From an uncultured Armatimonadaceae bacterium (GTDB taxonomy: Bacteria > Armatimonadota > Armatimonadia > Armatimonadales > Armatimonadaceae), in contig CAXTBP010000120.1 in assembly GCA_964241985.1 (NCBI GenBank), positions 1 to 14,804 of the forward strand: a DNA stretch of 14,804 nt. The letters are read 5' to 3'. Positions 1,476 to 14,736 of the stretch are shown piece after piece; within the stretch, counting starts at the first letter, position 1; every line of letters begins with the position of its first letter. The position numbers and the translations under genes are program-made. The notes under the pieces were generated by a model, which did no database searches, had not been told where the DNA came from, and was given only the letters and a program-made list of their open reading frames with translations.

Positions 1476-2261
1476 ATGGGCGAAATTGGTGGACACAACG
1501 CGGGCAGCAGCGGCCTTTCCGCGCTGCTTTCATGGCAGAATTTGGTGTTTTTGCTGCCGTTTGGCGCGTCGATATTTTTGCTGTTGCTGTCGTCGTTTCG
1601 TTTGGGCGGCGGGCATCGGCACGCGGGCGGCGGTTTCAAAGGGCACGCAGGCGGCGGACACGGGCGGCATCACCACAGCGGCGGGGTCGGCAAAGGGCAC
1701 GCGAAAACGGCGGCGGGCAAGGCGCATGGCAAGCCCGGCGCGAAGCATAACAACGGTTCGTCGAAAAATCACGTCACGCCGCTTGGCTTCGTTATAGCCC
1801 TTGTTGGCGCAAACCGCGCGCCGCTCCCGCTTTTGGCGCAGATATTCTGTTTGGCGTGGGGCGTCGGAGGGCTTGCCGCAGGACGATTGCTTCCCGGCGG
1901 TGAACCAAGCGGGGCGGGCGAAAGCAGTTTGCGCTTTTTGTTTTGCTTGCTCGCCGCATTCGCGTTCGGGTTTGTCGCGGCCCGCTTGGGCGCGGAACTG
2001 TTGGCCCGATTTATGCCGCAGGAAAGCACATCGGTGGTTTCGCGCGATGCCTTGTACGGATTGACCGGCAAGGTGATTTTCCCGGTTACCGCGAGCGCGG
2101 GCCGGGTGCGCGTGTACGACGAATGGAACACGCTCCACGACGAATCCTGCCGCAGAGCGGGCGCGAATAGCGACGATGACGCCGCGCCGATTGCCAAAGG
2201 CCGCACAGTGCGCATCGTTGACCGCGACGCCAAAGGGTGTTTGTTGGTCGAAGAAGCCTAA
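1476..2261 (+). CDS. NfeD-like (YqiJ-type) membrane protein, paralog 1, with a His/Gly-rich cationic loop
   Basis: N-terminal TM segment FLLPFGASIFLLLLSS, then a low-complexity GGGHRHAGGGFKGHAGGGHGRHHHSGG...KHNNG loop, then two further hydrophobic segments. The C-terminal ~70 aa (VSRDALYGLTGKVIFPVTASAGRVRVYDEWNTLHDESCR...VRIVDRDAKGCLLVEE) have the pattern of an NfeD/YuaF OB-fold beta-barrel domain. It lies upstream of an SPFH/flotillin gene, as is typical for NfeD. Possible GGAAG SD 9 nt upstream. The exact start is uncertain (in-frame TTG/GTG at about 1542/1545). Confidence 0.65.
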   Translation: MGEIGGHNAGSSGLSALLSWQNLVFLLPFGASIFLLLLSSFRLGGGHRHAGGGFKGHAGGGHGRHHHSGGVGKGHAKTAAGKAHGKPGAKHNNGSSKNHVTPLGFVIALVGANRAPLPLLAQIFCLAWGVGGLAAGRLLPGGEPSGAGESSLRFLFCLLAAFAFGFVAARLGAELLARFMPQESTSVVSRDALYGLTGKVIFPVTASAGRVRVYDEWNTLHDESCRRAGANSDDDAAPIAKGRTVRIVDRDAKGCLLVEEA

Positions 2262-3029: not shown

Positions 3030-5129
3030 ATGGGATTTATTGTGATTGCGGCGGGGCTTGCGCTGATTGTTTTCGGCCTCTTGGGGCCAGCCCTCGGAGC
3101 GCCCATACAAACGTTGGCGGGCCTGCTCATTATGATTTGCGGCCTGCTCGTCACCCTCGTCGGACTGGGCTTGACGTTTATGGGCTTCTATCGGCGCACG
3201 AGCGCGGATCAAGCCTTTGTGCGCACAGGGCAGGGCGGCAAGCACGTCGTTTTGGATGGCGGTATTCCTGTCTATCCGCTCATTCATCGCATCATTGAGA
3301 TCAACCTCAAAACGATGAAATTAGGCGTTAACCCGCGCGGCGCGAACGCGCTCATTACACGGGATAATTTGCGGGCCAACGTCCTCGCACAGTTTTATAT
3401 TCGCGTACAGGCCGATACCGAGCATATCCTGAACGCCGCCCGCAGCTTGGGTGAAAACAGCATCAACGAACGGGCCGTCGAAGAATTAGTGTCGGAAAAA
3501 CTGACGAGCGCGCTCCGCGCTATCGCTTCGCAGATGGACTTGTTCGATATTCACACCCAGCGCGACCAGTTTGCTGAGCGGGTCAAGGAACACGTCAAGG
3601 ACGACTTGGAAGCCAACGGTTTGCTTTTGGAATCCGTCACGATTTCCGAACTCGACCAAACCGACCCGGCAGAGTTGTCGGACAACAACGTCTTCGATGC
3701 GCAGGGCAAGCGTAAAATCACCGAAATTACCGCCGCCGCGATGGTGGAGCGCAACAATTTGGAGCGCACCGCCGAACAAGCCCGCAAACTCAAGGACGTG
3801 GAAACGCGCCAGCAAATCTTAGGTTTGGAGCGGCAACAGGCTGAGGCCGAAGCGCAGCAGCAAACGGAAATCGCCAAAGTCCGCGCCGACAACGAGCGCG
3901 AATCTCAAGAAGCGGTTATTGTGCAGCAGCGGCAAATCGAACTTGCGCGGATCGAAAAAGAGAAGCAGGTGCAGGCGCAGGAAATCGCGCGACAGCAAGC
4001 CGTCGAAATCGCGCGAACCCAGCAGGAACAGGCCGTGCAGGCCGCGCAAATCGTGCGTGACCAAGCCCTGCAAACGGCGACGGTCGAGCGGGAAAAATCC
4101 GTCAGTGTCGCCGAGCGGCAAAAGCAAATCGCGGTTGCCCAGCAGGAAACCGCGCGCGCCAAAGCCGAAGAGGAAGCCCTGTCCGCGCAGGCCGACCGTG
4201 AAAAAGCGAGCCAGCAAGTCGTCACCGTGACGCAGCTTGCCGAAGCCGACCGCGACGCCAACAAAAAACTGATCGCGGCCCGGCAGGAAATCGAGCAGTC
4301 CAAACTTCGGCAACAAACCGGGGCCGACGTGGAAGCCTACACGCGCATTAAGCAGGCCGAGGCGGAGCGCGAATCTGCCGTTCAGCAGGCCGAAGCGCGT
4401 TTGCAGATGGCGGAAGCTGAAGCGCAGGCCCGCGAACTGGTCGCCCGTGGCGAAAAAGCGCAGCAAATGGTAGCCGTGGAAGTCAACCGCGAACAGGTTA
4501 CGGTGGACGAAGCGAAGGTCGCTGTCGAGCGGCAACAATTGGAAAACCGGCAACAGTTCGCCCAAGCCGGTATTCAGTTAGAAGTCCAGAAACTGACGAT
4601 TCAAGCCGACCGCGACGTGCAAATGGAGTTCGCCAAAGCGATGGCAAACTTCTTATCGTCGGGGCACATGACCTTGTACGGCACGCCCGAAACCGCCAAT
4701 ATGATGATCGACAATATGGCAAAAGGCTTCGGTCTGCGCTCAATGATCAACAGTTTCGTCAATGGCCCGGACGACGGCGCAAACGGAAACGGCGCGAACT
4801 TACCTGCCGTCCGCTCGACAAACGGCAATGGAAACGGAACCGACGCCGTGGGCGCGCTCTTATCGCAGGTCGGCGGTTTGCTTGGCCCCGCGCTCGCCAA
4901 AGTGACGGGCGGCGCAAACAGTAATTCGGCGCAAACGTCCGAGGACACGGAAGCCATCGCCCAGCGTTTGGCAAGCGATCCCAAACTGCTGGCCGCGCTC
5001 CGCGACGCCCTTGCCGCGCAGCCCACGCCCGCCGTTGTCGCCGCCGTGCCGGTTGTGACCGTCGTTCCTGCCGCAATCAACAACGGCAGCCCGGACGCTG
5101 CAACCGCCGCGAAACCTGCCGTCAAGTAG
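3030..5129 (+). CDS. Flotillin-like SPFH/band-7 protein (YqiK/FloT family)
   Basis: N-terminal TM hairpin (IVIAAGLALIVFGLLGPALG...LLIMICGLLVTLVGLGLTFMGF). The SPFH core reads AFVRTGQGGKHVVLDGGIPVYPLIHRIIEINLKTMKL...ALITRDNLRANVLAQFYIRVQ. It is followed by a long E/A/Q-rich coiled coil (the flotillin domain) and a Gly/Asn/Ala-rich C-terminal tail. Strong SD (GGAGGAG, 8-nt spacer). It is the third gene in the operon after the two NfeD-like genes. Confidence 0.85.
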   Translation: MGFIVIAAGLALIVFGLLGPALGAPIQTLAGLLIMICGLLVTLVGLGLTFMGFYRRTSADQAFVRTGQGGKHVVLDGGIPVYPLIHRIIEINLKTMKLGVNPRGANALITRDNLRANVLAQFYIRVQADTEHILNAARSLGENSINERAVEELVSEKLTSALRAIASQMDLFDIHTQRDQFAERVKEHVKDDLEANGLLLESVTISELDQTDPAELSDNNVFDAQGKRKITEITAAAMVERNNLERTAEQARKLKDVETRQQILGLERQQAEAEAQQQTEIAKVRADNERESQEAVIVQQRQIELARIEKEKQVQAQEIARQQAVEIARTQQEQAVQAAQIVRDQALQTATVEREKSVSVAERQKQIAVAQQETARAKAEEEALSAQADREKASQQVVTVTQLAEADRDANKKLIAARQEIEQSKLRQQTGADVEAYTRIKQAEAERESAVQQAEARLQMAEAEAQARELVARGEKAQQMVAVEVNREQVTVDEAKVAVERQQLENRQQFAQAGIQLEVQKLTIQADRDVQMEFAKAMANFLSSGHMTLYGTPETANMMIDNMAKGFGLRSMINSFVNGPDDGANGNGANLPAVRSTNGNGNGTDAVGALLSQVGGLLGPALAKVTGGANSNSAQTSEDTEAIAQRLASDPKLLAALRDALAAQPTPAVVAAVPVVTVVPAAINNGSPDAATAAKPAVK

Positions 5130-5199
5130 CGTTGAGCGAACCAAGAGAAAAGGGGATAGCGAATAGCCCGGCGCGTTTGCGCCGGGCTTTTTGTGTTTT
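5097..5199. repeat. Copy A of a duplicated 3'-end-plus-terminator module (last ~9 codons of the flotillin gene, then the terminator)
   Basis: The coding block gctgcaaccgccgcgaaacctgccgtcaagtagcg (..AATAAKPAVK*) and the terminator block agcccggcgcgtttgcgccgggctttttgtgtttt are separated by a 33-nt spacer. See copy B at 6284..6375. Confidence 0.6.
5165..5199 (+). terminator. Rho-independent terminator of the nfeD-nfeD-flotillin operon
   Basis: Perfect 9-bp stem GCCCGGCGC / GCGCCGGGC with a GTTT tetraloop, followed by TTTTTGTGTTTT. It lies 36 nt after the flotillin stop. Confidence 0.75.
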
Positions 5200-5278
5200 A
5201 TGCGACGGAAGGTGCCCGGTGGTACAGTAAAACCGATATGCGAGACTCTTTGAAGCCCGAACGGGCTATGGTTCGTCC

Positions 5279-6316
5279 GTGAAACTTCGCTTCAAACCGG
5301 ACTGGTTTCTTTCGGGCATGGTCATCGCCGTGGTGCTTGCGTGGCTTTTCCCGAGCGCCGGGGCGGAAGGCGGCTGGCTTCATCCCGAAATTCTGACCAA
5401 AGCGGGCGTCGCCCTGATTTTCTTTTTGCACGGCGTCGCGCTTTCGTTTGGCGATTTGAAGGCGGGAATGTTGCGCTGGCCTATCCATTTGCTCGTTCAG
5501 GGCTGCACGTTCCTCTTATTTCCCCTGCTGGGAATGGGGCTGCTTTTGCTGCCGGGCGTGCCGCTCGATTGGTGTCCGCCCGCGCTGAAACTGGGCCTAT
5601 TTTATTTGTGCGCCTTGCCATCGACGGTTTCATCGTCGGTTGCGATGACGGCGGCGGCTAAAGGCGACGTACCGATTGCCGTGTTCAACGCCACGATTTC
5701 CAGCCTCATCGGGGTATTCGCCACGCCGCTCTGGATTGGGGTAGCCCTAAAAACGCAGGGAACCGGCGGCGAAGCGCACGCGCTTCCGCTGGGTTCGGTC
5801 ATTTTGGATTTGATGCTGTGGCTCGTTTTGCCGCTCATTGTCGGGCAGATTTTCCGCCCGCTCTTAGGCGCATGGGTCAAAAAAAACAAAGCGTTCGTCA
5901 ATAAGGTGGATCGCTGTACGATTTTGCTGCTCGTGTACACCTCGTTTTGCGATTCGGTCAAGCGCGGCGTATGGACGGGGCACGGCATCGCCACACTTCT
6001 CGTCACGCTCGTTGCCTCACTCATTTTGTTTGGTGCGGTGTTTTTTGCAACGGGAACGGCGTGCGACCTTTTGAATGTGCCGCGCAAAGACCGTATCGCC
6101 GCCGTGTTTTGCGGATCGAAAAAATCACTGGCTTCGGGCGTCCCGATGGCGCAGCTAATTTTCGGGGCAAACCCCGGCATGGGTCTGATTCTGCTTCCGA
6201 TTATGATTTATCATCCGCTCCAGCTTTTCATCTGCTCCCTGCTCGCCGACCGCTGGGCACGCGAACCGCATACGGATGATAATGCCGCAACCGCTGCGAA
6301 ACCCGTCGCCAAATAG
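5279..6316 (+). CDS. Bile acid:sodium symporter (BASS/SBF-like, YfeH-type) family transporter
   Basis: The N-terminus MKLRFKPDWFLSGMVIAVVLAWLFPSAG matches the MKLFRILDPF...-type start of YfeH-like proteins. It is a polytopic membrane protein with ~10 hydrophobic segments, Pro/Gly-rich helix breaks (LLFPLLGMGLLLLPGVPLDW) and the CGSKKSLASGVPMAQ motif region. GTG start with no obvious SD. The C-terminal tail ...DNAATAAKPVAK is not typical of the family (see findings). Confidence 0.75.
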   Translation: MKLRFKPDWFLSGMVIAVVLAWLFPSAGAEGGWLHPEILTKAGVALIFFLHGVALSFGDLKAGMLRWPIHLLVQGCTFLLFPLLGMGLLLLPGVPLDWCPPALKLGLFYLCALPSTVSSSVAMTAAAKGDVPIAVFNATISSLIGVFATPLWIGVALKTQGTGGEAHALPLGSVILDLMLWLVLPLIVGQIFRPLLGAWVKKNKAFVNKVDRCTILLLVYTSFCDSVKRGVWTGHGIATLLVTLVASLILFGAVFFATGTACDLLNVPRKDRIAAVFCGSKKSLASGVPMAQLIFGANPGMGLILLPIMIYHPLQLFICSLLADRWAREPHTDDNAATAAKPVAK

Positions 6317-6375
6317 CGCATCGCAAAATCGCATAAAAAAGCCCGGCGCGTTTGCGTCGGGCTTTTTTGTGTTTT
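6284..6375. repeat. Copy B of the duplicated 3'-end-plus-terminator module (last ~9 codons of the BASS transporter, then the terminator)
   Basis: The coding block gccgcaaccgctgcgaaacccgtcgccaaatagcg matches 29 of 35 nt of copy A. The terminator agcccggcgcgtttgcgtcgggcttttttgtgtttt matches copy A apart from one substitution and one extra T. The spacer between the blocks is 21 nt and unrelated. Confidence 0.6.
6340..6375. terminator. Rho-independent, probably bidirectional, terminator between the convergent BASS transporter (+) and the Uma2 operon (-)
   Basis: Stem GCCCGGCGC / GCGTCGGGC (one G-U wobble) with a GTTT loop. It is flanked by AAAAAA upstream and TTTTTTGTGTTTT downstream, so it is U-rich on both strands. 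The Uma2 stop is 9 nt to the right. Confidence 0.7.
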
Positions 6376-6383
6376 GCGCTTGT

Positions 6384-6983
6384 CTATGCGGGCAGGAGCA
6401 TATCGGAAACCCGTAAAACGGACTGCGCCGCCGCGAGCGAAACGGTGTCGGTTTCTTCAAACGTGGCAAGATTTGCGTAGCCGTTGGGCGTCGGCTGAGA
6501 ATACACGCGCAGTTCGCGCCCGTTCAAATCCAGCACCCAGTATTCCACAACTCCGGCCCGCGCATACAGCGCGGCCTTGACGGATACATCGGTGCGGAGC
6601 GTGGTATCGGAAACTTCGACAAGAAGCCGCACGTCGCGGGCCGCCGGGTCGCCCGTATAATCGGAAACCGGGCGATGCAGAACGACGACATCCGGCTCCG
6701 GCAGGTTGTTGTCGTCAAGGGCGACCGGCCCTTGCGACTGCACGAACTCCGTGCCAAACACTCCCATCAGCAACGCCTGAACGCGCATACACGCCACCAA
6801 GTGCCTGCGTTTTTGCGGCATAACGGTAACAATTTCCCCTTCCAAAAGTTCGTAACGCGCCGCGCTACTTGCCGTGGAGCCGAGCCAGCCGCTGTCAAAT
6901 AAACGCGCGTACTCGTCGCGCGTCCAAGTTTTGCGCGGCATTTCTTGGCTGTTTGGCAAAATTACTTCTGCTGTTGCTGTCAT
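6384..6983 (-). CDS. Uma2-family (DUF820) PD-(D/E)xK putative restriction-endonuclease-like protein
   Basis: Characteristic Uma2 pattern: TRDEYARLFDSGWL...RYELLEGEIVTVMPQKRRH...PDVVVL...VRLLVEVSDTT...KAALYARAGVVEYWVLD...RVY. The true start may be the second Met (MPRKTWTRDEY..., about 6941), which fits the family N-terminus better. Confidence 0.8.
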   Translation of the reverse strand: MTATAEVILPNSQEMPRKTWTRDEYARLFDSGWLGSTASSAARYELLEGEIVTVMPQKRRHLVACMRVQALLMGVFGTEFVQSQGPVALDDNNLPEPDVVVLHRPVSDYTGDPAARDVRLLVEVSDTTLRTDVSVKAALYARAGVVEYWVLDLNGRELRVYSQPTPNGYANLATFEETDTVSLAAAQSVLRVSDMLLPA

Positions 6984-7019: not shown

Positions 7020-7292
7020 TTACACTGAGCGCGAAGCTGTATGCGACAAACGTACCATCAGCAAGTCGAAAGCATCGGCGGACAGAATGCCGTAATCGTT
7101 CAAAATACCGCGCGCCGCCGCAAGGTGATAGGCGCGTACCGGTTCGGAATCCGCAAGTTGGGGTAGGGGCAGCCGCGCACCGGTGGGATGGTCGAAAGTT
7201 CGTCCTCGTGTATCGACGGTTTCGACAAAGCCTTCGTGGCGCAATGCTTGCGCCAAATCCTGATAGGTTAAACCGCTTACTGTCGCTATCAT
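7020..7292 (-). CDS. HicA-like (YcfA family) small dsRBD-fold protein with a non-canonical catalytic motif
   Basis: LTYQDLAQALRHEGFVETVDTRGRTFDHPTGARLPLP...L.....GIL follows the HicA template (L..L...GW.....GSHR.F.HP....V..HP..L..GT...IL). It has RGRT where HicA has the catalytic G-S-H. There is a ~30-aa C-terminal extension. An AGGAG SD overlaps the stop codon of the upstream gene, indicating translational coupling. Confidence 0.45.
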   Translation of the reverse strand: MIATVSGLTYQDLAQALRHEGFVETVDTRGRTFDHPTGARLPLPQLADSEPVRAYHLAAARGILNDYGILSADAFDLLMVRLSHTASRSV

Positions 7293-7301
7293 AGGTTGCT
7301 C

Positions 7302-7748
7302 CTAAATGATGTGGTTCTTGCGCTGACGTAATAACTCAACTGCAGCCTCATCAAAATGCTGACTTACGGGAACGCGAAGCGTTGAGCGGGTTATGTCGCT
7401 TGCCGCGTCCTGAATGTGTAACCAGTAGGCAGTGTCGGCGGGAACATCATAAAGAACCAAAACGACCGGAACCCGTTCCTCGCGCCATGCCTGTAAATCG
7501 CCTTCCGCAACGCGCACGGAAACCGCGCGTCCGTTATCAACAAAGGTCGGTGCGTCCGTTGCTTTAAGTTGAATGTAGAAGAAGTCGCGCTCTATTTCGC
7601 CATTCGCGTCAAAAGTACGAACCGTCAAATCATAGCCGTAATCGAAGAAAATCCGGTCGGCAACATGGCCCGCGCGCAATATAAACCGCTCTACGTGATT
7701 GACGCTCAAATCCGCAATGACGTGTTCGCGGGTTCGCCGTTTCTTCAT
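7302..7748 (-). CDS. DUF4365-like PD-(D/E)xK nuclease-fold protein
   Basis: The N-terminal pattern RTREHVIADLSVNHVERFILRAGHVADRIFFDYGYDL....GEIERDFFYIQLKAT matches my recollection of the DUF4365 (PF14280) consensus (..E..s.n.ve...........DyGiD........vqvKat). A candidate active site is D(YGYD)...E...QLK. Its codon usage appears more AT-rich than its neighbours. Needs HMM confirmation. Confidence 0.5.
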   Translation of the reverse strand: MKKRRTREHVIADLSVNHVERFILRAGHVADRIFFDYGYDLTVRTFDANGEIERDFFYIQLKATDAPTFVDNGRAVSVRVAEGDLQAWREERVPVVLVLYDVPADTAYWLHIQDAASDITRSTLRVPVSQHFDEAAVELLRQRKNHII

Positions 7749-7790
7749 AGAAAATTATAGCACGCGGGGCACATTGCCGACCGAATTCTC
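7749..7790 (-). promoter_or_regulatory. Extended -10 promoter (TGCTATAAT) abutting the DUF4365-like start; near-leaderless transcript predicted
   Basis: The minus strand reads ...GTGCTATAATTTTCTATG. A perfect TGnTATAAT (plus-strand 7754..7762) ends 5 nt before the ATG, so the predicted TSS falls at or within 1-2 nt of the start codon. There is no SD. It sits in the 41-nt gap after the glgP stop. Confidence 0.45.
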
Positions 7791-10387
7791 TATTCCCACG
7801 CGATAAGTGGTAGTTCCTGCGGCAGAACGGCGTTTTTGTGGTAGGGCAAAACGCGCACGGTGAAGCCTTGCTGGCCGCTTTGCTCGGTGGGGAGCGGGCC
7901 GGAATAGCGGTAGGGGCCAGCGGGGGCGTCGGGATTTTCGCAGGTTAGCAAAACGGTGTGCGCGGTTTCCAGCGAGCGGTCGGCGTCAATTGGGCCGCCG
8001 TAGAATTGCACGGCGACATCGCTTGGCGTCAGCGTGCCCAGCGAAACGACGACGTGAACCTGTGCGGCTTGGTGGGAGGCCAAGTTGTCTTGCGCGTTTT
8101 GCACGCTCTCGGTGTTGGCAGTGGCCCAACTGGGCCGCGATTTCTTCTTCCACGAGACCAGCTCTTTGGCGACGGCGTAATCGTTGGCGGCAAGCACGGC
8201 TTCGCGGCGGGCGGCGGGCACGTAGTAAGTTTCGGCGTACTCTTTGACCATGCGGGCGGTTGTGAAAACCGGGGCCAATTTTTTCATCGACGCCTTGACT
8301 TTGCTTATCCACCCGTGCGGCAAGCCGTCGGTTCCCCGGTCGTAGAACAGCGGCACGATGGAACGCTCCAACGTTTCGTAGATGTCTTCGGCCTCGACGT
8401 GGTCTTGGTAGCCCTCGTCCTCGTAATCGTCGCCGCGTCCTATTTCCCAGCCAACGGCGGGGTCGTAGCCCTCGGCCCACCAGCCGTCGAGAATGGAAAA
8501 GTTGAGACCGCCGTTTGCGATGACTTTCATGCCGGACGTGCCCGACGCCTCGTGCGGGCGGCGCGGGTTGTTGAGCCACACGTCCACGCCCTCGACCAAA
8601 TACCGCGCCATCGCCATATCGTAGTCTTCCAAAAACACGATTTTACGCCGAACGTCCTCGCCTTTGGCGAAGTGAACGATATGGCGAATGAGTTCTTTGC
8701 CGGAATCGTCTTTTGGGTGCGCTTTGCCCGCGAACACGAACTGCACGGGCCGGTCGGTATTGTTCAAAATGCGCTTGATGCGCTCCACGTCGCGGAGCAA
8801 AAGGTCGCCGCGTTTGTAGGTGGCGAAGCGACGGGCGAAGCCAATCGTCAAAATTTTAGGGTCTAAAATTTCGCGGGCGTCCTGTATCTCGCGGTCGGAC
8901 GCGCCGCGCTTTTCCATGCGGGCTTCTTGATACTTGCGCGCCCACGTTACCAATTTTTCGCGGCGCAGTTCGTGGGTTTGCCACAGTTCCGCGTCGGGAA
9001 TGGTGTCCACTTTGGCCCAAAAATCCACACTTGCCAAGTTTTCCGCCGTCGCTTCGCCCAGATATTTGTCCTGCAAATCCGCCATTTCGCCCGACAAAAA
9101 TGAGCGCGTGTGGATACCATTCGTAACGCTGCCGACCGGCACTTCATCGAGCGGATAATCGGGCCAGTTGGGCTGTACCATTTTTCGTGTCACTTCGCCG
9201 TGCAGTTTGGAAACGCCGTTGATATAGCGGGCCTGCCGGAACGCGAGAACCGCCATATTGAATTTTTCGCTGGCGTCTCCCTGCGCTACGCGGCCCCGAT
9301 CCATCAAGTCGGCGAACGCGGGCAGTTTCACGTCGAAGGCATAGTCCGTGAAGTATTTCGCCATGAGTTCGGGCGGGAATTTATCGAATCCGGCGGGAAC
9401 CGGCGTGTGGGTGGTGAACAAATTGCCTGCCGCCGCCGCTTCGGATGCGTCCGCGAATGACAAGCCTTTTTCCTGAGCCAACCGCCGCACGCGCTCCAAA
9501 CTCAAAAACGCGGAATGACCCTCGTTCATGTGGCACACGGCGGGCTTGATGCCCATTGCGGCAAGGGCGTGGATGCCGCCGATACCCAAAATAATTTCCT
9601 GCTGGATGCGCGTTTCGTTGTCGCCGCCGTATAGGTTGCCCGCGATATGGCGGTCGGCCTCGCTGTTTTGCGGTAGATTCGTGTCCAAAAGAAAGAGCGG
9701 GATACGTCCGACCTGCGCTTTCCACACCTGAATATGGACTTGCCGACCGGGAAAATTGACATCAATCGTGAACGGATGATCGGTCAAATCGCCCTCGCGC
9801 TTTTCGCCGCCGGGCACGGGTTCGATGGGCAGCGAGTAAAAATCGGTCGTCGGGTAGTTTTCGATTTGCCAGCCGTCGCCGTTCAGCGATTGCCGGAAGT
9901 AGCCGTTTTGGTACAAAAAACCGACCCCGACAAGCGGCAAACCCAAGTCCGACGCGGATTTCAAATGGTCGCCCGCAAGCACCCCCAAGCCGCCCGAATA
10001 AATGGGCAAGCATTCCGTGATGCCAAACTCGGCGGAGAAATACGCGATGCGAAAGTTCGGGTCGGAAAACTCGGTTTTGTACGCGCCGTCCCACCACATC
10101 GGGCCGTCCATATACGCGCGGAACGCTTGGTACACGTCGCCCAACTGCGCCAAAAACGCGGCATCTTGGGCGGCGGCGTCCAGCCGCGCTTGGGGAACCA
10201 AGCCCAACAATTTGGCGGGATTGTGCCCCGACTGTTCCCACAGTGGGTCACCGCCCAGAGCGCGGAACAAACGAATGGAAGCGGCATCCCACGCCCAGCG
10301 TAGGTTGTAGGCGAGTTCCCGCAAATTTTGCAAAGCGGGCGGAAGCGACGGGGTAACGGTATAGGTGTGCAGCGTGCGCGGCGTCAT
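7790..10387 (-). CDS. glgP: Alpha-1,4-glucan (glycogen/maltodextrin) phosphorylase, GT35, long bacterial 'alpha-glucan family' type
   Basis: The N-terminal domain reads PSLPPALQNLRELAYNLRWAWD...LGGDPLWE (DUF3417-like). The PLP-site signature is EASGTSGMKVIANGGLNFSILDGWWAEGY, with TNGIHTRSF and GKAHPKD motifs. The track starts at TTG 10393. ATG at 10385..10387 (MTPRTL...) is more likely; an AAAGGA lies 11 nt upstream. Confidence 0.9.
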   Translation of the reverse strand: MTPRTLHTYTVTPSLPPALQNLRELAYNLRWAWDAASIRLFRALGGDPLWEQSGHNPAKLLGLVPQARLDAAAQDAAFLAQLGDVYQAFRAYMDGPMWWDGAYKTEFSDPNFRIAYFSAEFGITECLPIYSGGLGVLAGDHLKSASDLGLPLVGVGFLYQNGYFRQSLNGDGWQIENYPTTDFYSLPIEPVPGGEKREGDLTDHPFTIDVNFPGRQVHIQVWKAQVGRIPLFLLDTNLPQNSEADRHIAGNLYGGDNETRIQQEIILGIGGIHALAAMGIKPAVCHMNEGHSAFLSLERVRRLAQEKGLSFADASEAAAAGNLFTTHTPVPAGFDKFPPELMAKYFTDYAFDVKLPAFADLMDRGRVAQGDASEKFNMAVLAFRQARYINGVSKLHGEVTRKMVQPNWPDYPLDEVPVGSVTNGIHTRSFLSGEMADLQDKYLGEATAENLASVDFWAKVDTIPDAELWQTHELRREKLVTWARKYQEARMEKRGASDREIQDAREILDPKILTIGFARRFATYKRGDLLLRDVERIKRILNNTDRPVQFVFAGKAHPKDDSGKELIRHIVHFAKGEDVRRKIVFLEDYDMAMARYLVEGVDVWLNNPRRPHEASGTSGMKVIANGGLNFSILDGWWAEGYDPAVGWEIGRGDDYEDEGYQDHVEAEDIYETLERSIVPLFYDRGTDGLPHGWISKVKASMKKLAPVFTTARMVKEYAETYYVPAARREAVLAANDYAVAKELVSWKKKSRPSWATANTESVQNAQDNLASHQAAQVHVVVSLGTLTPSDVAVQFYGGPIDADRSLETAHTVLLTCENPDAPAGPYRYSGPLPTEQSGQQGFTVRVLPYHKNAVLPQELPLIAWE

Positions 10388-13579: not shown

Positions 13580-13861
13580 ATGACCGAAAGGAAAACGGAA
13601 AAGACTATGGCACAAACATCCGCATTACTGGATAAAGAAGATTTGCTGACGGAGATAGAACGTATCAAATCGCTTTATCCGTCCGCGCCGCCTATCGGCA
13701 AAACCAATCCTGAACAAATAGAGCGTTCGTCGGGCCTTTTCGCAAATGACCCTTTGTTTGAGGCCGCCGTTCGTGCCGGGCAGGAATGGCGAAAAGCCGA
13801 ATCAACTGAAAACGAGCGGGAGCAGAACATAAAAGATGCCAGCGACGTTATATCTGCTTGA
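13580..13861 (+). CDS. Putative antitoxin partner of the downstream PIN toxin (VapB-like by position)
   Basis: A small acidic ORF ending 26 nt inside the PIN gene, the classic TA overlap. There is no recognisable AbrB/RHH/Phd motif, so the call is by context only. The start may be ATG 13607 (MAQTS...). Confidence 0.35.
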   Translation: MTERKTEKTMAQTSALLDKEDLLTEIERIKSLYPSAPPIGKTNPEQIERSSGLFANDPLFEAAVRAGQEWRKAESTENEREQNIKDASDVISA

Positions 13862-14273
13862 CACCGACCACATGACGGTTTGGGAGCGGGGCGGGTTGGA
13901 AAAAGTACGCCTCAAAGAACGTTTGGACAGCATTGCGCCCGATGACTACGGAACCACGATTATCAATTTCGAGGAACAAATGCGCGGCTGGCTTGCAGAA
14001 ATCGCAGGTACGGCTCAAAAGCCCGACGTGCAAACCCAACAGTATCAGCGATTAGGCGAACTGCTCCGATATTACCAATTCTTTTCGGTGTGGCAATACG
14101 ATGAACGTTCGGCGGCGATTTATCAAGTTTTGGTGAAGCAAAAAGTGCGCGTTGGAACCCAAGATTTGAAAATCGCATCCATCGCGCTGGCAAACGATGC
14201 GACGGTTTTAACGCGCAACACACGCGACTTCGGCAAAGTGCCGGGTTTGAAAGTAGAAGACTGGACGATATAG
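13836..14273 (+). CDS. vapC: PIN-domain ribonuclease toxin (VapC family)
   Basis: N-terminal LYLLDTD, a central Glu (NFEEQ), GTQDLKIASIALAN (third Asp) and C-terminal TRNTRDF: a canonical PIN acidic quartet. Confidence 0.8.
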   Translation: MPATLYLLDTDHMTVWERGGLEKVRLKERLDSIAPDDYGTTIINFEEQMRGWLAEIAGTAQKPDVQTQQYQRLGELLRYYQFFSVWQYDERSAAIYQVLVKQKVRVGTQDLKIASIALANDATVLTRNTRDFGKVPGLKVEDWTI

Positions 14274-14340
14274 CACACCAGTTTCAGGCAAGCGCGGGAG
14301 TACAACGCAGGCTAATGAACAGAACGGCGGGGAGCAAGAA

Positions 14341-14736
14341 ATGGAAAGAACATGGATCGTTGACAAAAACGGTGAACTGAATCTGATTCTGCGCTCAATT
14401 ACGTGGCGCGGCTGGGCGCGGCAAGCGGGCTGGCTGCTTTTTGCTTTCGTTTTCAAGGGTGCGATTGATTTGGCTTCCCAAAGGTTGGGCATTGGCCCGA
14501 AACCTGTCCATCCGATACAGCCTCTACCTTGGAAACAAGCGGGTGTTTTGTTGCTTGGTTACACGGTACTTGCCCTAACCATTCCGCTTATCGCTGCCGT
14601 TTTGCGGCAAATCTACCTGCGGGCTGAACGAATTATTACACGAACCGATAAACCCCACAGGGAAACGCGCGCTTTATGGTTCGTTACTTTTTGCGGCGCT
14701 TGTATCATTGCACTTGTTCTCATTTTTGATCATTAG
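14341..14736 (+). CDS. Hypothetical small membrane protein (3 predicted TM segments)
   Basis: GGGGAG SD 6 nt upstream of the ATG. Hydrophobic segments: AGWLLFAFVF, AGVLLLGYTVLALTIPLIAAVL and WFVTFCGACIIALVLIF. No family recognised. Confidence 0.45.
   Translation: MERTWIVDKNGELNLILRSITWRGWARQAGWLLFAFVFKGAIDLASQRLGIGPKPVHPIQPLPWKQAGVLLLGYTVLALTIPLIAAVLRQIYLRAERIITRTDKPHRETRALWFVTFCGACIIALVLIFDH

What the first reader, a model, noticed from the sequence alone, without database searches (positions are those of the whole stretch)
5097..6375. A roughly 100-bp module (last 9 codons plus rho-independent terminator) is duplicated and flanks the BASS transporter gene
The flotillin gene ends ...DAATAAKPAVK* and the BASS transporter ends ...DNAATAAKPVAK*. 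The DNA is 29/35 identical over the coding block, including the stop and the following CG. The downstream hairpin terminators (GCCCGGCGC-GTTT-GCGYCGGGC followed by TTTTTGTGTTTT) differ by one substitution and one T. YfeH-type transporters do not normally carry such a tail. One gene therefore acquired its 3' end and terminator from the other. The direct repeats bracket the transporter gene, which is consistent with it having been inserted or captured between copies of a repeat, or with a small terminator-containing repeat element that donates a C-terminal peptide.
Basis: seen in the sequence. Interest (0 to 1): 0.5.

Follow-up and report, generated by a model that had tools for sequence, protein, structure and literature searches.

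The report
Transporter gene borrowed neighbour's tail and terminator
A roughly 100-base piece holding the last 11 codons, stop codon and transcription terminator of a flotillin-like gene was duplicated when a transporter gene came to lie next to it, so the transporter now ends with its neighbour's peptide tail and terminator; this is a neat but ordinary trace of genome rearrangement.

Summary
Copy c1 (5094-5199) ends the SPFH/flotillin-like gene and copy c2 (6281-6375) ends the BASS/YfeH-like transporter. The coding blocks match at 30/38 nt and 8/11 residues. The hairpin and T-tract differ by one substitution and one T. No shuffle of the window and none of about 28,000 unrelated tail pairs reaches this similarity.

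The direction of transfer is flotillin to transporter. Flotillin orthologues at 95%, 87% and 86% identity carry the same tail (..AK(P)AVK*) and an orthologous hairpin. None of 240 BASS homologues has the tail.

The transporter follows the flotillin gene only here and in the 95% relative. It is absent there in 11 relatives at 71-87% identity, each with different downstream genes. In c2 the sixth stem pair is G.T, between ancestral A-T and the G-C of c1. That places the duplication before the split from the 95% relative.

Copy c1 acts as a one-way terminator. Copy c2 keeps the A-tract and serves the convergent transporter and Uma2 genes as a two-way terminator.

I found no support for a multi-copy element that donates tails. 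The hairpin core is a generic terminator, with 56 hits in 185,579 genomes. The source genome could not be scanned, and how the duplication arose is unresolved. Interest is low to moderate.

The parts
3030..5129 (+). SPFH/Band-7 (YqiK/flotillin-like) gene, 699 aa; the donor of the module
   Evidence: Pfam Band_7 E=3e-21. Orthologues of 70-95% identity are named SPFH/YqiK/flotillin in Chthonomonadaceae MAGs.
5094..5131 (+). c1 coding block: the last 11 codons (DAATAAKPAVK), TAG and CG of the flotillin gene
   Evidence: It is orthologous to the tails of L003, L005 and L076.
5132..5164 (+). c1 spacer, purine-rich (GAGAAAAGGGGA), alignable with the spacers of L003 and L005
5165..5199 (+). c1 intrinsic terminator: hairpin 5166-5187 (9-bp G+C stem, loop GTTT) and T-tract 5188-5199. 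It has no upstream A-tract, so it is one-way.
   Evidence: Terminator scan. RNA fold -29.7 kcal/mol, z -2.8.
5200..5278 (+). Leader of the transporter gene. GGTGGTACAGT (an extended -10-like motif, read by eye) and ATGGTTCGTCCGTGAAA are conserved in L003.
   Evidence: No Rfam family matches and there is no similarity to flotillin sequence. That this is a promoter is inferred.
5279..6316 (+). BASS / SBF_like (YfeH, SLC10A7-like) transporter gene, 345 aa, GTG start. The core is native up to ...RWARE; the last 11 codons derive from the flotillin gene.
   Evidence: Pfam SBF_like E=2e-101, covering residues 8-328. Homologues reach at most 69% identity and none has the tail.
6281..6318 (+). c2 coding block: the last 11 codons (NAATAAKPVAK), TAG and CG of the transporter gene
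   Evidence: 30/38 nt and 8/11 aa identical to c1.
6319..6334 (+). c2 spacer, shorter than that of c1. Together with the A-tract it mirrors the downstream T-tract.
6335..6375 (.). c2 two-way intrinsic terminator: A-tract 6335-6340, hairpin 6341-6362 (the sixth stem pair is G.T) and T-tract 6363-6375. It lies between the convergent transporter and Uma2 genes.
   Evidence: RNA fold on the + strand -39.7 kcal/mol, z -8.4; on the - strand -24.7 kcal/mol, z -3.6. The simple terminator scan listed c1 but not c2. Gene layout.
6384..6983 (-). Uma2-family gene, convergent with the transporter; its transcript would end at c2
   Evidence: Pfam Uma2 E=9e-27; downstream sequence.

Best explanation
The two modules are paralogous copies of the native 3' end of the flotillin-like gene. 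Each holds its last 11 codons, the TAG stop, a short spacer and the Rho-independent terminator.

One local duplication of about 100 bp took place in the common ancestor of this organism and its 95% relative. It happened after that lineage split from the relatives whose flotillin is 86-87% identical. The duplication came together with, or soon after, the arrival of the BASS/YfeH-like transporter gene directly behind the flotillin operon. One copy now lies on each side of the transporter.

The transporter's reading frame, complete through its conserved core (...RWARE), runs in frame into the second copy. The protein therefore ends with the flotillin decapeptide and uses the flotillin-type stop and terminator.

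Today c1 insulates the flotillin operon from the transporter as a one-way terminator and has lost its A-tract. c2 kept or extended the A-tract and ends both the transporter transcript and the convergent Uma2 transcript.

The peptide tail on the transporter is most likely a passenger with no function of its own.

Shown: the homology of the copies, the direction of transfer, the relative date and the lineage-specific position of the transporter. Inferred: that duplication and insertion were a single event, how the duplication was made, and that the hairpins actually terminate transcription.
For: 1. The copies are homologous beyond chance.

2. The tail and terminator are native to the flotillin gene. 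L003, L005 and L076 all end ..AK(P)A(V/A)K* and carry an orthologous hairpin at the same place. c2 shares the derived Pro codon with c1 and L003, so it nests inside the flotillin-tail clade.

3. BASS homologues lack the tail.

4. The transporter follows the flotillin gene only in the window/L004 and in L003. It is absent there in L005, L076 and nine JGI loci whose flotillin is 71-77% identical.

5. Fourfold-degenerate sites differ by 0.28 (flotillin) and 0.29 (transporter 5' part) between the window and L003. The transporter was therefore already present in their common ancestor. The same measure is 0.50-0.56 against L005 and L076. c1 and c2 differ at 3 of 6 fourfold sites, which falls between these values.

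6. The sixth stem pair is A-T in L005 and L076, G.T in c2, and G-C in c1 and L003. This is the classic compensatory route through a wobble pair. It needs 2 changes if the duplication happened at the G.T stage and 3 otherwise.

7. c2 also keeps the A6 and T6 tracts seen in L005.

8. Both hairpins fold as strong terminators, c2 on both strands.

9. The GC3 of the transporter (0.685) matches its neighbours (about 0.70), so the insertion is old or came from within the lineage.
Against: - The spacers of c1 and c2 are not convincingly alignable. A single contiguous 100-bp duplication therefore requires a later deletion or remodelling in c2.
- No relative shows an intermediate state or the 'empty' flotillin-Uma2 junction.
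- The 3' end of the transporter in the 95% relative is off the contig, so the date rests on parsimony at a few sites.
- A 100-bp target duplication is not typical of any known insertion mechanism.
- The excess of synonymous differences in the tail (5 synonymous, 3 non-synonymous; p=0.02) hints that the peptide may not be a pure passenger.
Confidence: 0.7

Rival explanations
1. Two-step origin. The transporter first sat behind the flotillin terminator with its own tail and terminator. A short ectopic gene conversion or template switch then copied the flotillin 3' end onto it. The left end of the patch used a D-A-A-T-coding microhomology and the right end used a similar G+C-rich hairpin.
For: A few distant BASS homologues have tails that begin with D-A-A-T-like strings just after RWA: P0037 EDDAATTPVVTVAGK and P0088 ADAATPHAKLAPVG. 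GCCCGGCGC-type hairpins recur independently in Armatimonadota, with 6 of the 56 hits, so a resident hairpin could have supplied homology. The unlike spacers would fit a patchy conversion tract.
Against: D-A-A strings are not rare in Ala-rich tails (7 of 222). The G.T state and the A6/T6 tracts of c2 are simply explained as ancestral flotillin states. This route needs an extra event. The end result is the same as in the best explanation.
Confidence: 0.18
2. The module is one member of a dispersed, possibly mobile, terminator-bearing repeat family. The family lands on gene 3' ends and supplies a stop codon, a short peptide and a terminator.
For: The module consists of two conserved blocks, each behind a gene. 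The hairpin core is found in many genomes and is enriched in Armatimonadota. The source genome could not be scanned.
Against: In the three related genome stretches (L005, L076, L075; about 65 kb) the only hairpin of this type is the orthologous one behind the flotillin gene. No genome among 185,579 has more than 3 copies of the core, and the flanks of those hits are unrelated. No other gene end in 634 kb of fetched loci carries the tail. The tail is vertically inherited in flotillin orthologues. The module has no terminal inverted repeats or target duplications of its own.
Confidence: 0.04
3. The shared decapeptide is a functional C-terminal signal kept by selection on both proteins. It might, for example, direct both to one partner or to the flotillin microdomain. 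In that case the duplication was fixed because it tagged the transporter.
For: Between c1 and c2 there are 5 synonymous and 3 non-synonymous differences over about 9 and 24 sites (Fisher p=0.02). The changes fall mostly on third codon positions. 8 of 11 residues are kept although fourfold sites are about half diverged.
Against: On the c2 branch alone there are 3 non-synonymous and 2 synonymous changes, so there is no clear constraint. The flotillin tail itself varies freely among orthologues: 3 of 11 residues differ at 96% overall identity, and tails are unrelated beyond 80% identity. The tail is low-complexity (Ala, Lys, Pro, Val) with no known motif. The numbers are very small.
Confidence: 0.07
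4. Artefact or chance. Either a misassembly duplicated the region, or two low-complexity tails and two generic terminators resemble each other by coincidence.
For: The contig has low coverage (5.7x). The hairpin core arises convergently in many phyla. Third codon positions of identical residues match in only 4 of 8 cases, so the DNA identity of the coding block adds nothing beyond the peptide identity.
Against: The copies differ at many positions and share at most 17 exact bases, so they would not collapse in an assembly graph. L004 and the diverged L003 reproduce the junctions. None of 27,963 unrelated tail pairs reaches 7/11 identity. There are 56 hairpin hits in 596 Gb, against two within 1.2 kb here. 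The two blocks lie in the same order behind adjacent genes.
Confidence: 0.01

Closest known systems
Duplicated gene 3' ends flanking integrated DNA (attL/attR): prophage e14 in icd leaving a 163-bp pseudo-icd', and DLP12 at argU with 47 bp of argU repeated at its far end (PMC6379469)
   Same: A stretch from the 3' end of the target gene, tens to about 160 bp long, is present on both sides of the inserted DNA as a direct repeat. The upstream gene stays intact.
   Different: Here the insert is a single transporter gene of 1.08 kb with no integrase or other recombinase in or near it. The second copy is not a dead remnant: it is fused in frame to the cargo gene and serves as its stop and terminator. 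The copies are old and diverged.
Homology-facilitated illegitimate recombination (PMC3240628), and microhomology-mediated template switching (my own knowledge)
   Same: Both are known routes by which a foreign or ectopic segment is joined using a short homologous anchor at one end and microhomology at the other. Both can produce chimeric gene ends and small duplications.
   Different: No donor molecule or intermediate is available here, so the mechanism cannot be assigned. These routes are named only as plausible.
Two-way (bidirectional) intrinsic terminators between convergent genes (hits, for example PMC12207403 and bioRxiv 10.1101/2022.10.23.513370, seen only as search results and not read; features are from my own knowledge)
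   Same: c2 is a G+C-rich hairpin flanked by an A-tract and a T-tract between convergent genes, and it folds on both strands.
   Different: Function is only predicted here. c1, its paralogue, has lost the A-tract and stands between co-directional genes.
Dispersed terminator-bearing repeats (REP/BIME, Correia-like elements, MITEs) and integron attC sites
   Same: All are a short palindromic module behind an ORF, present more than once.
   Different: There is no evidence of high copy number. There are no terminal inverted repeats beyond the hairpin itself and no target-site duplication. There is no integron integrase, and the attC core sites (GTTRRRY) are absent: the loop region reads GTTTGCG.

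Membership tests
Rho-independent (intrinsic) terminator | G+C-rich stem-loop directly followed by a U-tract, placed just after a stop codon | tested here: met
   c1 is listed by the terminator scan; c2 is not listed there. c1 folds at -29.7 kcal/mol and c2 at -39.7 kcal/mol with z -8.4. They lie 36 and 24 nt after the stop codons.
Rho-independent (intrinsic) terminator | Transcripts actually end there | not testable with these tools
   This needs Term-seq or 3' RACE on the organism or on a reporter.
Two-way intrinsic terminator | A-tract upstream and T-tract downstream of the hairpin, between convergent genes, forming a hairpin on both strands | tested here: met
   Met for c2: A6 at 6335-6340, T6 at 6363-6368, BASS (+) and Uma2 (-) converge, and the minus strand folds at -24.7 kcal/mol with z -3.6. 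Not met for c1, which reads GAATA upstream and lies between co-directional genes.
Dispersed repeat element (REP/BIME, MITE, Correia-like) | Many copies spread over the genome | tested here: inconclusive
   The source MAG is not among the 185,579 representative genomes. Three related genome stretches (about 65 kb) have the hairpin only behind the flotillin gene. There are at most 3 core copies in any genome, with unrelated flanks.
Dispersed repeat element (REP/BIME, MITE, Correia-like) | Terminal inverted repeats and a target-site duplication bounding each copy | tested here: not met
   The only inverted repeat is the terminator hairpin itself, and no short duplication bounds the modules.
Integron gene cassette / attC | IntI integrase nearby, and attC with R''/R' core sites (RYYYAAC ... 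GTTRRRY) | tested here: not met
   No integrase or recombinase domain is present in any ORF of the window. The hairpin has no GTTRRRY; GTTTGCG has T, G, C at the R positions.
Integrative element with att sites made from the target gene's 3' end (e14/icd type) | Direct repeats derived from the 3' end of the upstream gene flank the inserted DNA | tested here: met
   c1 and c2 flank 5200-6280, and both derive from the flotillin 3' end.
Integrative element with att sites made from the target gene's 3' end (e14/icd type) | Site-specific recombinase encoded in the insert | tested here: not met
   The insert contains only the transporter gene and its 79-nt leader.
Local segmental duplication creating a chimeric gene end | The copy nests phylogenetically within the donor's orthologues and is absent from the recipient's homologues | tested here: met
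   c2 shares the Pro codon and the G in the 5' stem arm with c1 and L003. It shares the T in the 3' stem arm and the A6/T6 tracts with L005 and L076. None of 240 BASS homologues has the tail.

The most novel reading that the evidence does not exclude
The decapeptide AATAAKP(A/V)(V/A)K-COOH is a functional C-terminal address or recognition tag of the flotillin-like protein. Its capture by the neighbouring transporter was selected because it couples the transporter to the flotillin scaffold or to a shared partner. This would be a bacterial, exon-shuffling-like transfer of a sorting signal together with its terminator.
Probability: 0.06. Interest if true: 0.55.

Novelty: new member of a known kind. 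Interest (0 to 1): 0.25.

Why it matters
This is a clean, datable example of how a newly placed bacterial gene can obtain a working 3' end (stop codon, C-terminal tail and terminator) by copying about 100 bp from its upstream neighbour.

It also catches a compensatory stem change in mid-course: A-T, then G.T, then G-C.

After the duplication the two copies specialised differently. One became a one-way terminator and the other stayed two-way.

The case is useful as an illustration and as a warning for annotation, since shared C-terminal peptides in adjacent unrelated proteins need not mean shared function. It does not reveal a new system.

Tried and rejected
1. Scan for a genome-wide repeat. 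The hairpin core was scanned against 185,579 species genomes. It gave 56 hits in many phyla with unrelated flanks, and the source MAG is not in the collection. This shows the core is a generic terminator but leaves the copy number in the source genome untested.

2. Search for the transporter's 3' end in the 95% relative. A third protein search with the C-terminal 145 residues found no fragment above 72% identity, so nothing was gained.

3. Exact cluster look-up for organism names. It gave no names but did yield P0363, and through it locus L076.

4. Rfam scan of the whole window. No family matched. A 3'-UTR-derived sRNA reading is also disfavoured, because most differences in the coding block fall on third codon positions.

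5. Remnants of a second flotillin copy. I searched the transporter leader (5200-5290) and the region upstream of the junction (6240-6290) and found only noise. A model of whole-gene tandem duplication followed by replacement therefore has no support.

6. Compositional sign of recent horizontal transfer. GC and GC3 of the transporter match the neighbourhood.

7. Integron attC, MITE and REP readings were rejected on their defining features (see the membership table).

8. The shared TAG stop was discarded as evidence, because TAG is the usual stop codon here.

9. Literature searches for an exact precedent, a terminator-plus-tail duplication flanking an inserted gene, found none. They returned only the general analogues cited.


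Full report
**Where the window comes from.** The window is the first 14.8 kb of a 16.3-kb metagenome contig (ENA ERZ1700621, NODE_2488, coverage 5.7). Named hits of 68-74% identity to its SPFH protein come from Chthonomonadaceae and Capsulimonadaceae MAGs. The organism is therefore an uncultured member of Armatimonadota.

The gene order is as follows:
- an alpha/beta hydrolase (-)
- two paralogous small membrane proteins (+), 1476-2261 and 2295-2987
- the SPFH/flotillin-like gene 3030-5129 (+)
- the SBF_like/BASS (YfeH-type) transporter 5279-6316 (+)
- Uma2 (-)
- a 90-aa ORF (-)
- DUF4365 (-)
- a glycogen phosphorylase-like gene (-)
- polA (+)
- three small low-GC genes (+)

**Checking the observation.** The flotillin-like protein ends DAATAAKPAVK* and the transporter ends NAATAAKPVAK*. 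Positions 5097-5131 and 6284-6318 match at 29/35 nt, and 5094-5131 and 6281-6318 at 30/38.

The hairpins at 5166-5187 and 6341-6362 differ by one C/T. The T-tracts that follow differ by one T. Between stop codon and hairpin lie 35 and 24 nt that do not align convincingly.

Only three 38-mer pairs in the window reach 30/38: these two blocks and a pair of paralogous genes. Twenty Markov shuffles never exceeded 28/38.

Both tails are Ala/Lys/Pro/Val-rich, so I also tested the peptide level. Among 27,963 pairs of C-terminal 11-mers from unrelated flotillin and BASS homologues, the maximum is 6 identities, against 8 here.

Third codon positions of the eight identical residues match in only four cases. 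The DNA identity of the coding block is therefore what the shared peptide alone would give. The evidence for homology is the peptide, its position at the very C-terminus, and the adjacent near-identical terminator. The shared TAG carries no information (9 of 13 stops are TAG).

Misassembly is unlikely. The copies share at most 17 exact bases. A Logan assembly (L004) is 100% identical over 3,113 nt. A diverged relative from another run (L003, 87.6% nt identity) shows the same flotillin-terminator-transporter junction.

**Direction of transfer.** Flotillin orthologues carry the tail:
- L003 (96% aa identity): ..SPDSAKTAKPAVK*
- L005 (87%): ..VKSAAKAVK*
- L076 (87.5%): ..VGAAAKAAK*

Each is followed, 30-45 nt later, by an A-tract, a GCCCGRCG...CGYCGGGC hairpin and a T-tract. 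More distant orthologues have unrelated tails.

In contrast, the 120 best full-length BASS homologues and 120 fragments end shortly after the conserved ...RWA(R/K) motif, with a median of 6 further residues. None has the tail except the identical protein P0001.

The transporter copy (c2) shares the Pro codon with c1 and L003, which L005 and L076 lack. It therefore nests inside the flotillin-tail lineage. The module is flotillin sequence that the transporter acquired.

**Position of the transporter.** The transporter follows the flotillin gene only in the window/L004 and in L003 (its first 125 residues are 93% identical). It is absent there in L005, L076 and nine JGI loci whose flotillin is 71-77% identical. 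The genes upstream (hydrolase, two paralogues, flotillin) stay collinear.

Downstream genes differ in every relative, and none has Uma2 there. The 3' flank of the operon is therefore a general break point, not a clean empty site.

The closest transporter homologues are only 61-69% identical. Those that carry names are from Verrucomicrobiota, Planctomycetota and Desulfuromonas. Even so, GC and GC3 of the gene match its neighbours. The placement is thus not recent, or the gene moved within the lineage.

**Dating.** Fourfold-degenerate sites differ by 0.28 (flotillin) and 0.29 (transporter) between the window and L003. Both genes have therefore diverged together since that split. The value is 0.50-0.56 against L005 and L076. 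c1 and c2 differ at 3 of 6 fourfold sites, which is consistent with an event between the two splits.

The sixth stem pair of the hairpin is A-T in L005 and L076, G.T in c2, and G-C in c1 and L003. The most parsimonious history has four steps:
1. A changed to G on the stem lineage.
2. The duplication happened at the G.T stage.
3. T changed to C in c1 before the window/L003 split.
4. c2 stayed frozen as the wobble intermediate.

This history needs 2 changes, against 3 for the alternative. c2 also retains the ancestral A6/T6 tracts seen in L005. At the tail positions where c1/c2 (AATAA) differ from L003 (SAKTA), L005 and L076 agree better with c1/c2. There is thus no sign of a later conversion between c1 and c2.

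**Anatomy and likely function.** Both hairpins fold as strong intrinsic terminators. c1 stands between co-directional genes and has lost the A-tract. A conserved leader follows it (5200-5278), containing an extended -10-like GGTGGTACAGT that is also present in L003. The transporter is therefore probably transcribed on its own; this is inferred.

c2 stands between the convergent transporter and Uma2 genes. Its upstream spacer (GCAAAATCGCATAAAAAA) mirrors the downstream TTTTTTGTGTTTTGC, giving a long palindrome that folds on both strands. That is the expected form of a two-way terminator. This remodelling may explain why the two spacers no longer align.

**Is it a repeat element?** The 22-nt core (R/Y at two positions) has 56 hits in 185,579 species genomes. 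The hits are scattered over Actinomycetota, Bacillota, Pseudomonadota, Chloroflexota and other phyla, almost all as terminators with unrelated flanks, and at most 3 per genome. Six of the 56 are in Armatimonadota.

The core is thus a convergent, favoured terminator shape, not a family of related elements. In about 65 kb from three related genomes it occurs only behind the flotillin gene. No other gene end in 634 kb of fetched loci carries the tail. The source MAG is not in the collection, so its own copy number remains untested.

**Is the tail selected?** c1 and c2 differ by 5 synonymous and 3 non-synonymous changes over about 9 and 24 sites (Fisher p=0.02). On the c2 branch alone the count is 3 non-synonymous to 2 synonymous. 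The flotillin tail itself varies among orthologues. I read this as weak constraint at most, and the tail on the transporter is probably a passenger.

**Mechanism of origin (inferred).** One duplication of about 100 bp linked to the placement of the transporter is the simplest account. I cannot say how it was made. The possibilities are:
- a long staggered break that was filled in
- a tandem duplication followed by insertion
- integration through a short homologous anchor
- a later conversion that used a D-A-A-T microhomology (P0037 and P0088 have such tails) and a similar resident hairpin

No remnant of further flotillin sequence lies next to the transporter.

**Comparison with known cases.** The closest analogue is the duplicated 3' end of a target gene on both sides of integrated DNA, as with e14 in icd (163 bp) and DLP12 at argU (47 bp) (PMC6379469). 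Here there is no recombinase, the cargo is a single gene, and the second copy is translated as the end of that gene. Homology-facilitated illegitimate recombination (PMC3240628) is a plausible route but is untested. Integron attC sites and REP/MITE elements fail their defining features.

**Verdict.** I add the direction (flotillin to transporter) and a relative date. It is an instructive but ordinary micro-duplication that made a chimeric gene end. I rate interest at 0.25 and class it as a new member of a known kind.

Noticed in passing
window 1476-2261 and 2295-2987 (repeat 2037-2153 vs 2772-2888; 9-nt tandem repeats 2408-2460): Two tandem paralogous membrane-protein genes lie directly upstream of the flotillin-like gene. 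They are 77% identical over 117 nt and are conserved upstream of the flotillin gene in all relatives. The first has a weak, sub-threshold NfeD C-terminal match, which fits an NfeD-like flotillin partner. The second contains GCGGCGACG-type 9-nt tandem repeats.
   Followed up: partly
window 7646-7681 and 7756-7791: A 36-nt inverted repeat (81% complementary, 74 nt apart) straddles the start of the DUF4365 gene and the end of the phosphorylase gene region.
   Followed up: no
window 7020-7748 and 13580-14736: These small genes have clearly lower GC3 (0.48-0.58) than the rest of the window (about 0.70). They are a 90-aa ORF plus DUF4365, and three small ORFs, one with a weak PIN-domain match. They are probably accessory or toxin-antitoxin-like genes.
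   Followed up: partly
L003 2625-2646 compared with window 5166-5187: The orthologous terminator in the 95% relative has the identical 9-bp stem, but its loop reads AAAC instead of GTTT. The loop (or the whole palindrome) is inverted.
   Followed up: no
Genome-contig hits L006-L061 (L006, L038, L058, L032, L052, L035 are Armatimonadota): The exact 22-nt hairpin GCCCGGCGCGTTTGCGCCGGGC recurs as a terminator in 56 places across many phyla. Six of the 56 are in Armatimonadota, which looks like an over-representation. L032 has two related hairpins 3.5 kb apart with unrelated flanks.
   Followed up: partly
L009 (Christensenellales MAG JAXGME010000010.1), matches at 2894-2915 and 4526-4547: Two copies of the same hairpin lie 1.6 kb apart. 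Their roughly 20-nt flanks are reverse complements of each other, while the loop reads GTTT in both. This is an inverted pair bracketing about 1.6 kb.
   Followed up: no
L075 10001-11005 (ENA ERZ25071721 contig_14) and P0088: Two distant BASS homologues have tails that begin with D-A-A-T-like strings: EDDAATTPVVTVAGK and ADAATPHAKLAPVG. These resemble the start of the window transporter's tail. This could be a native microhomology at the junction, or chance.
   Followed up: partly
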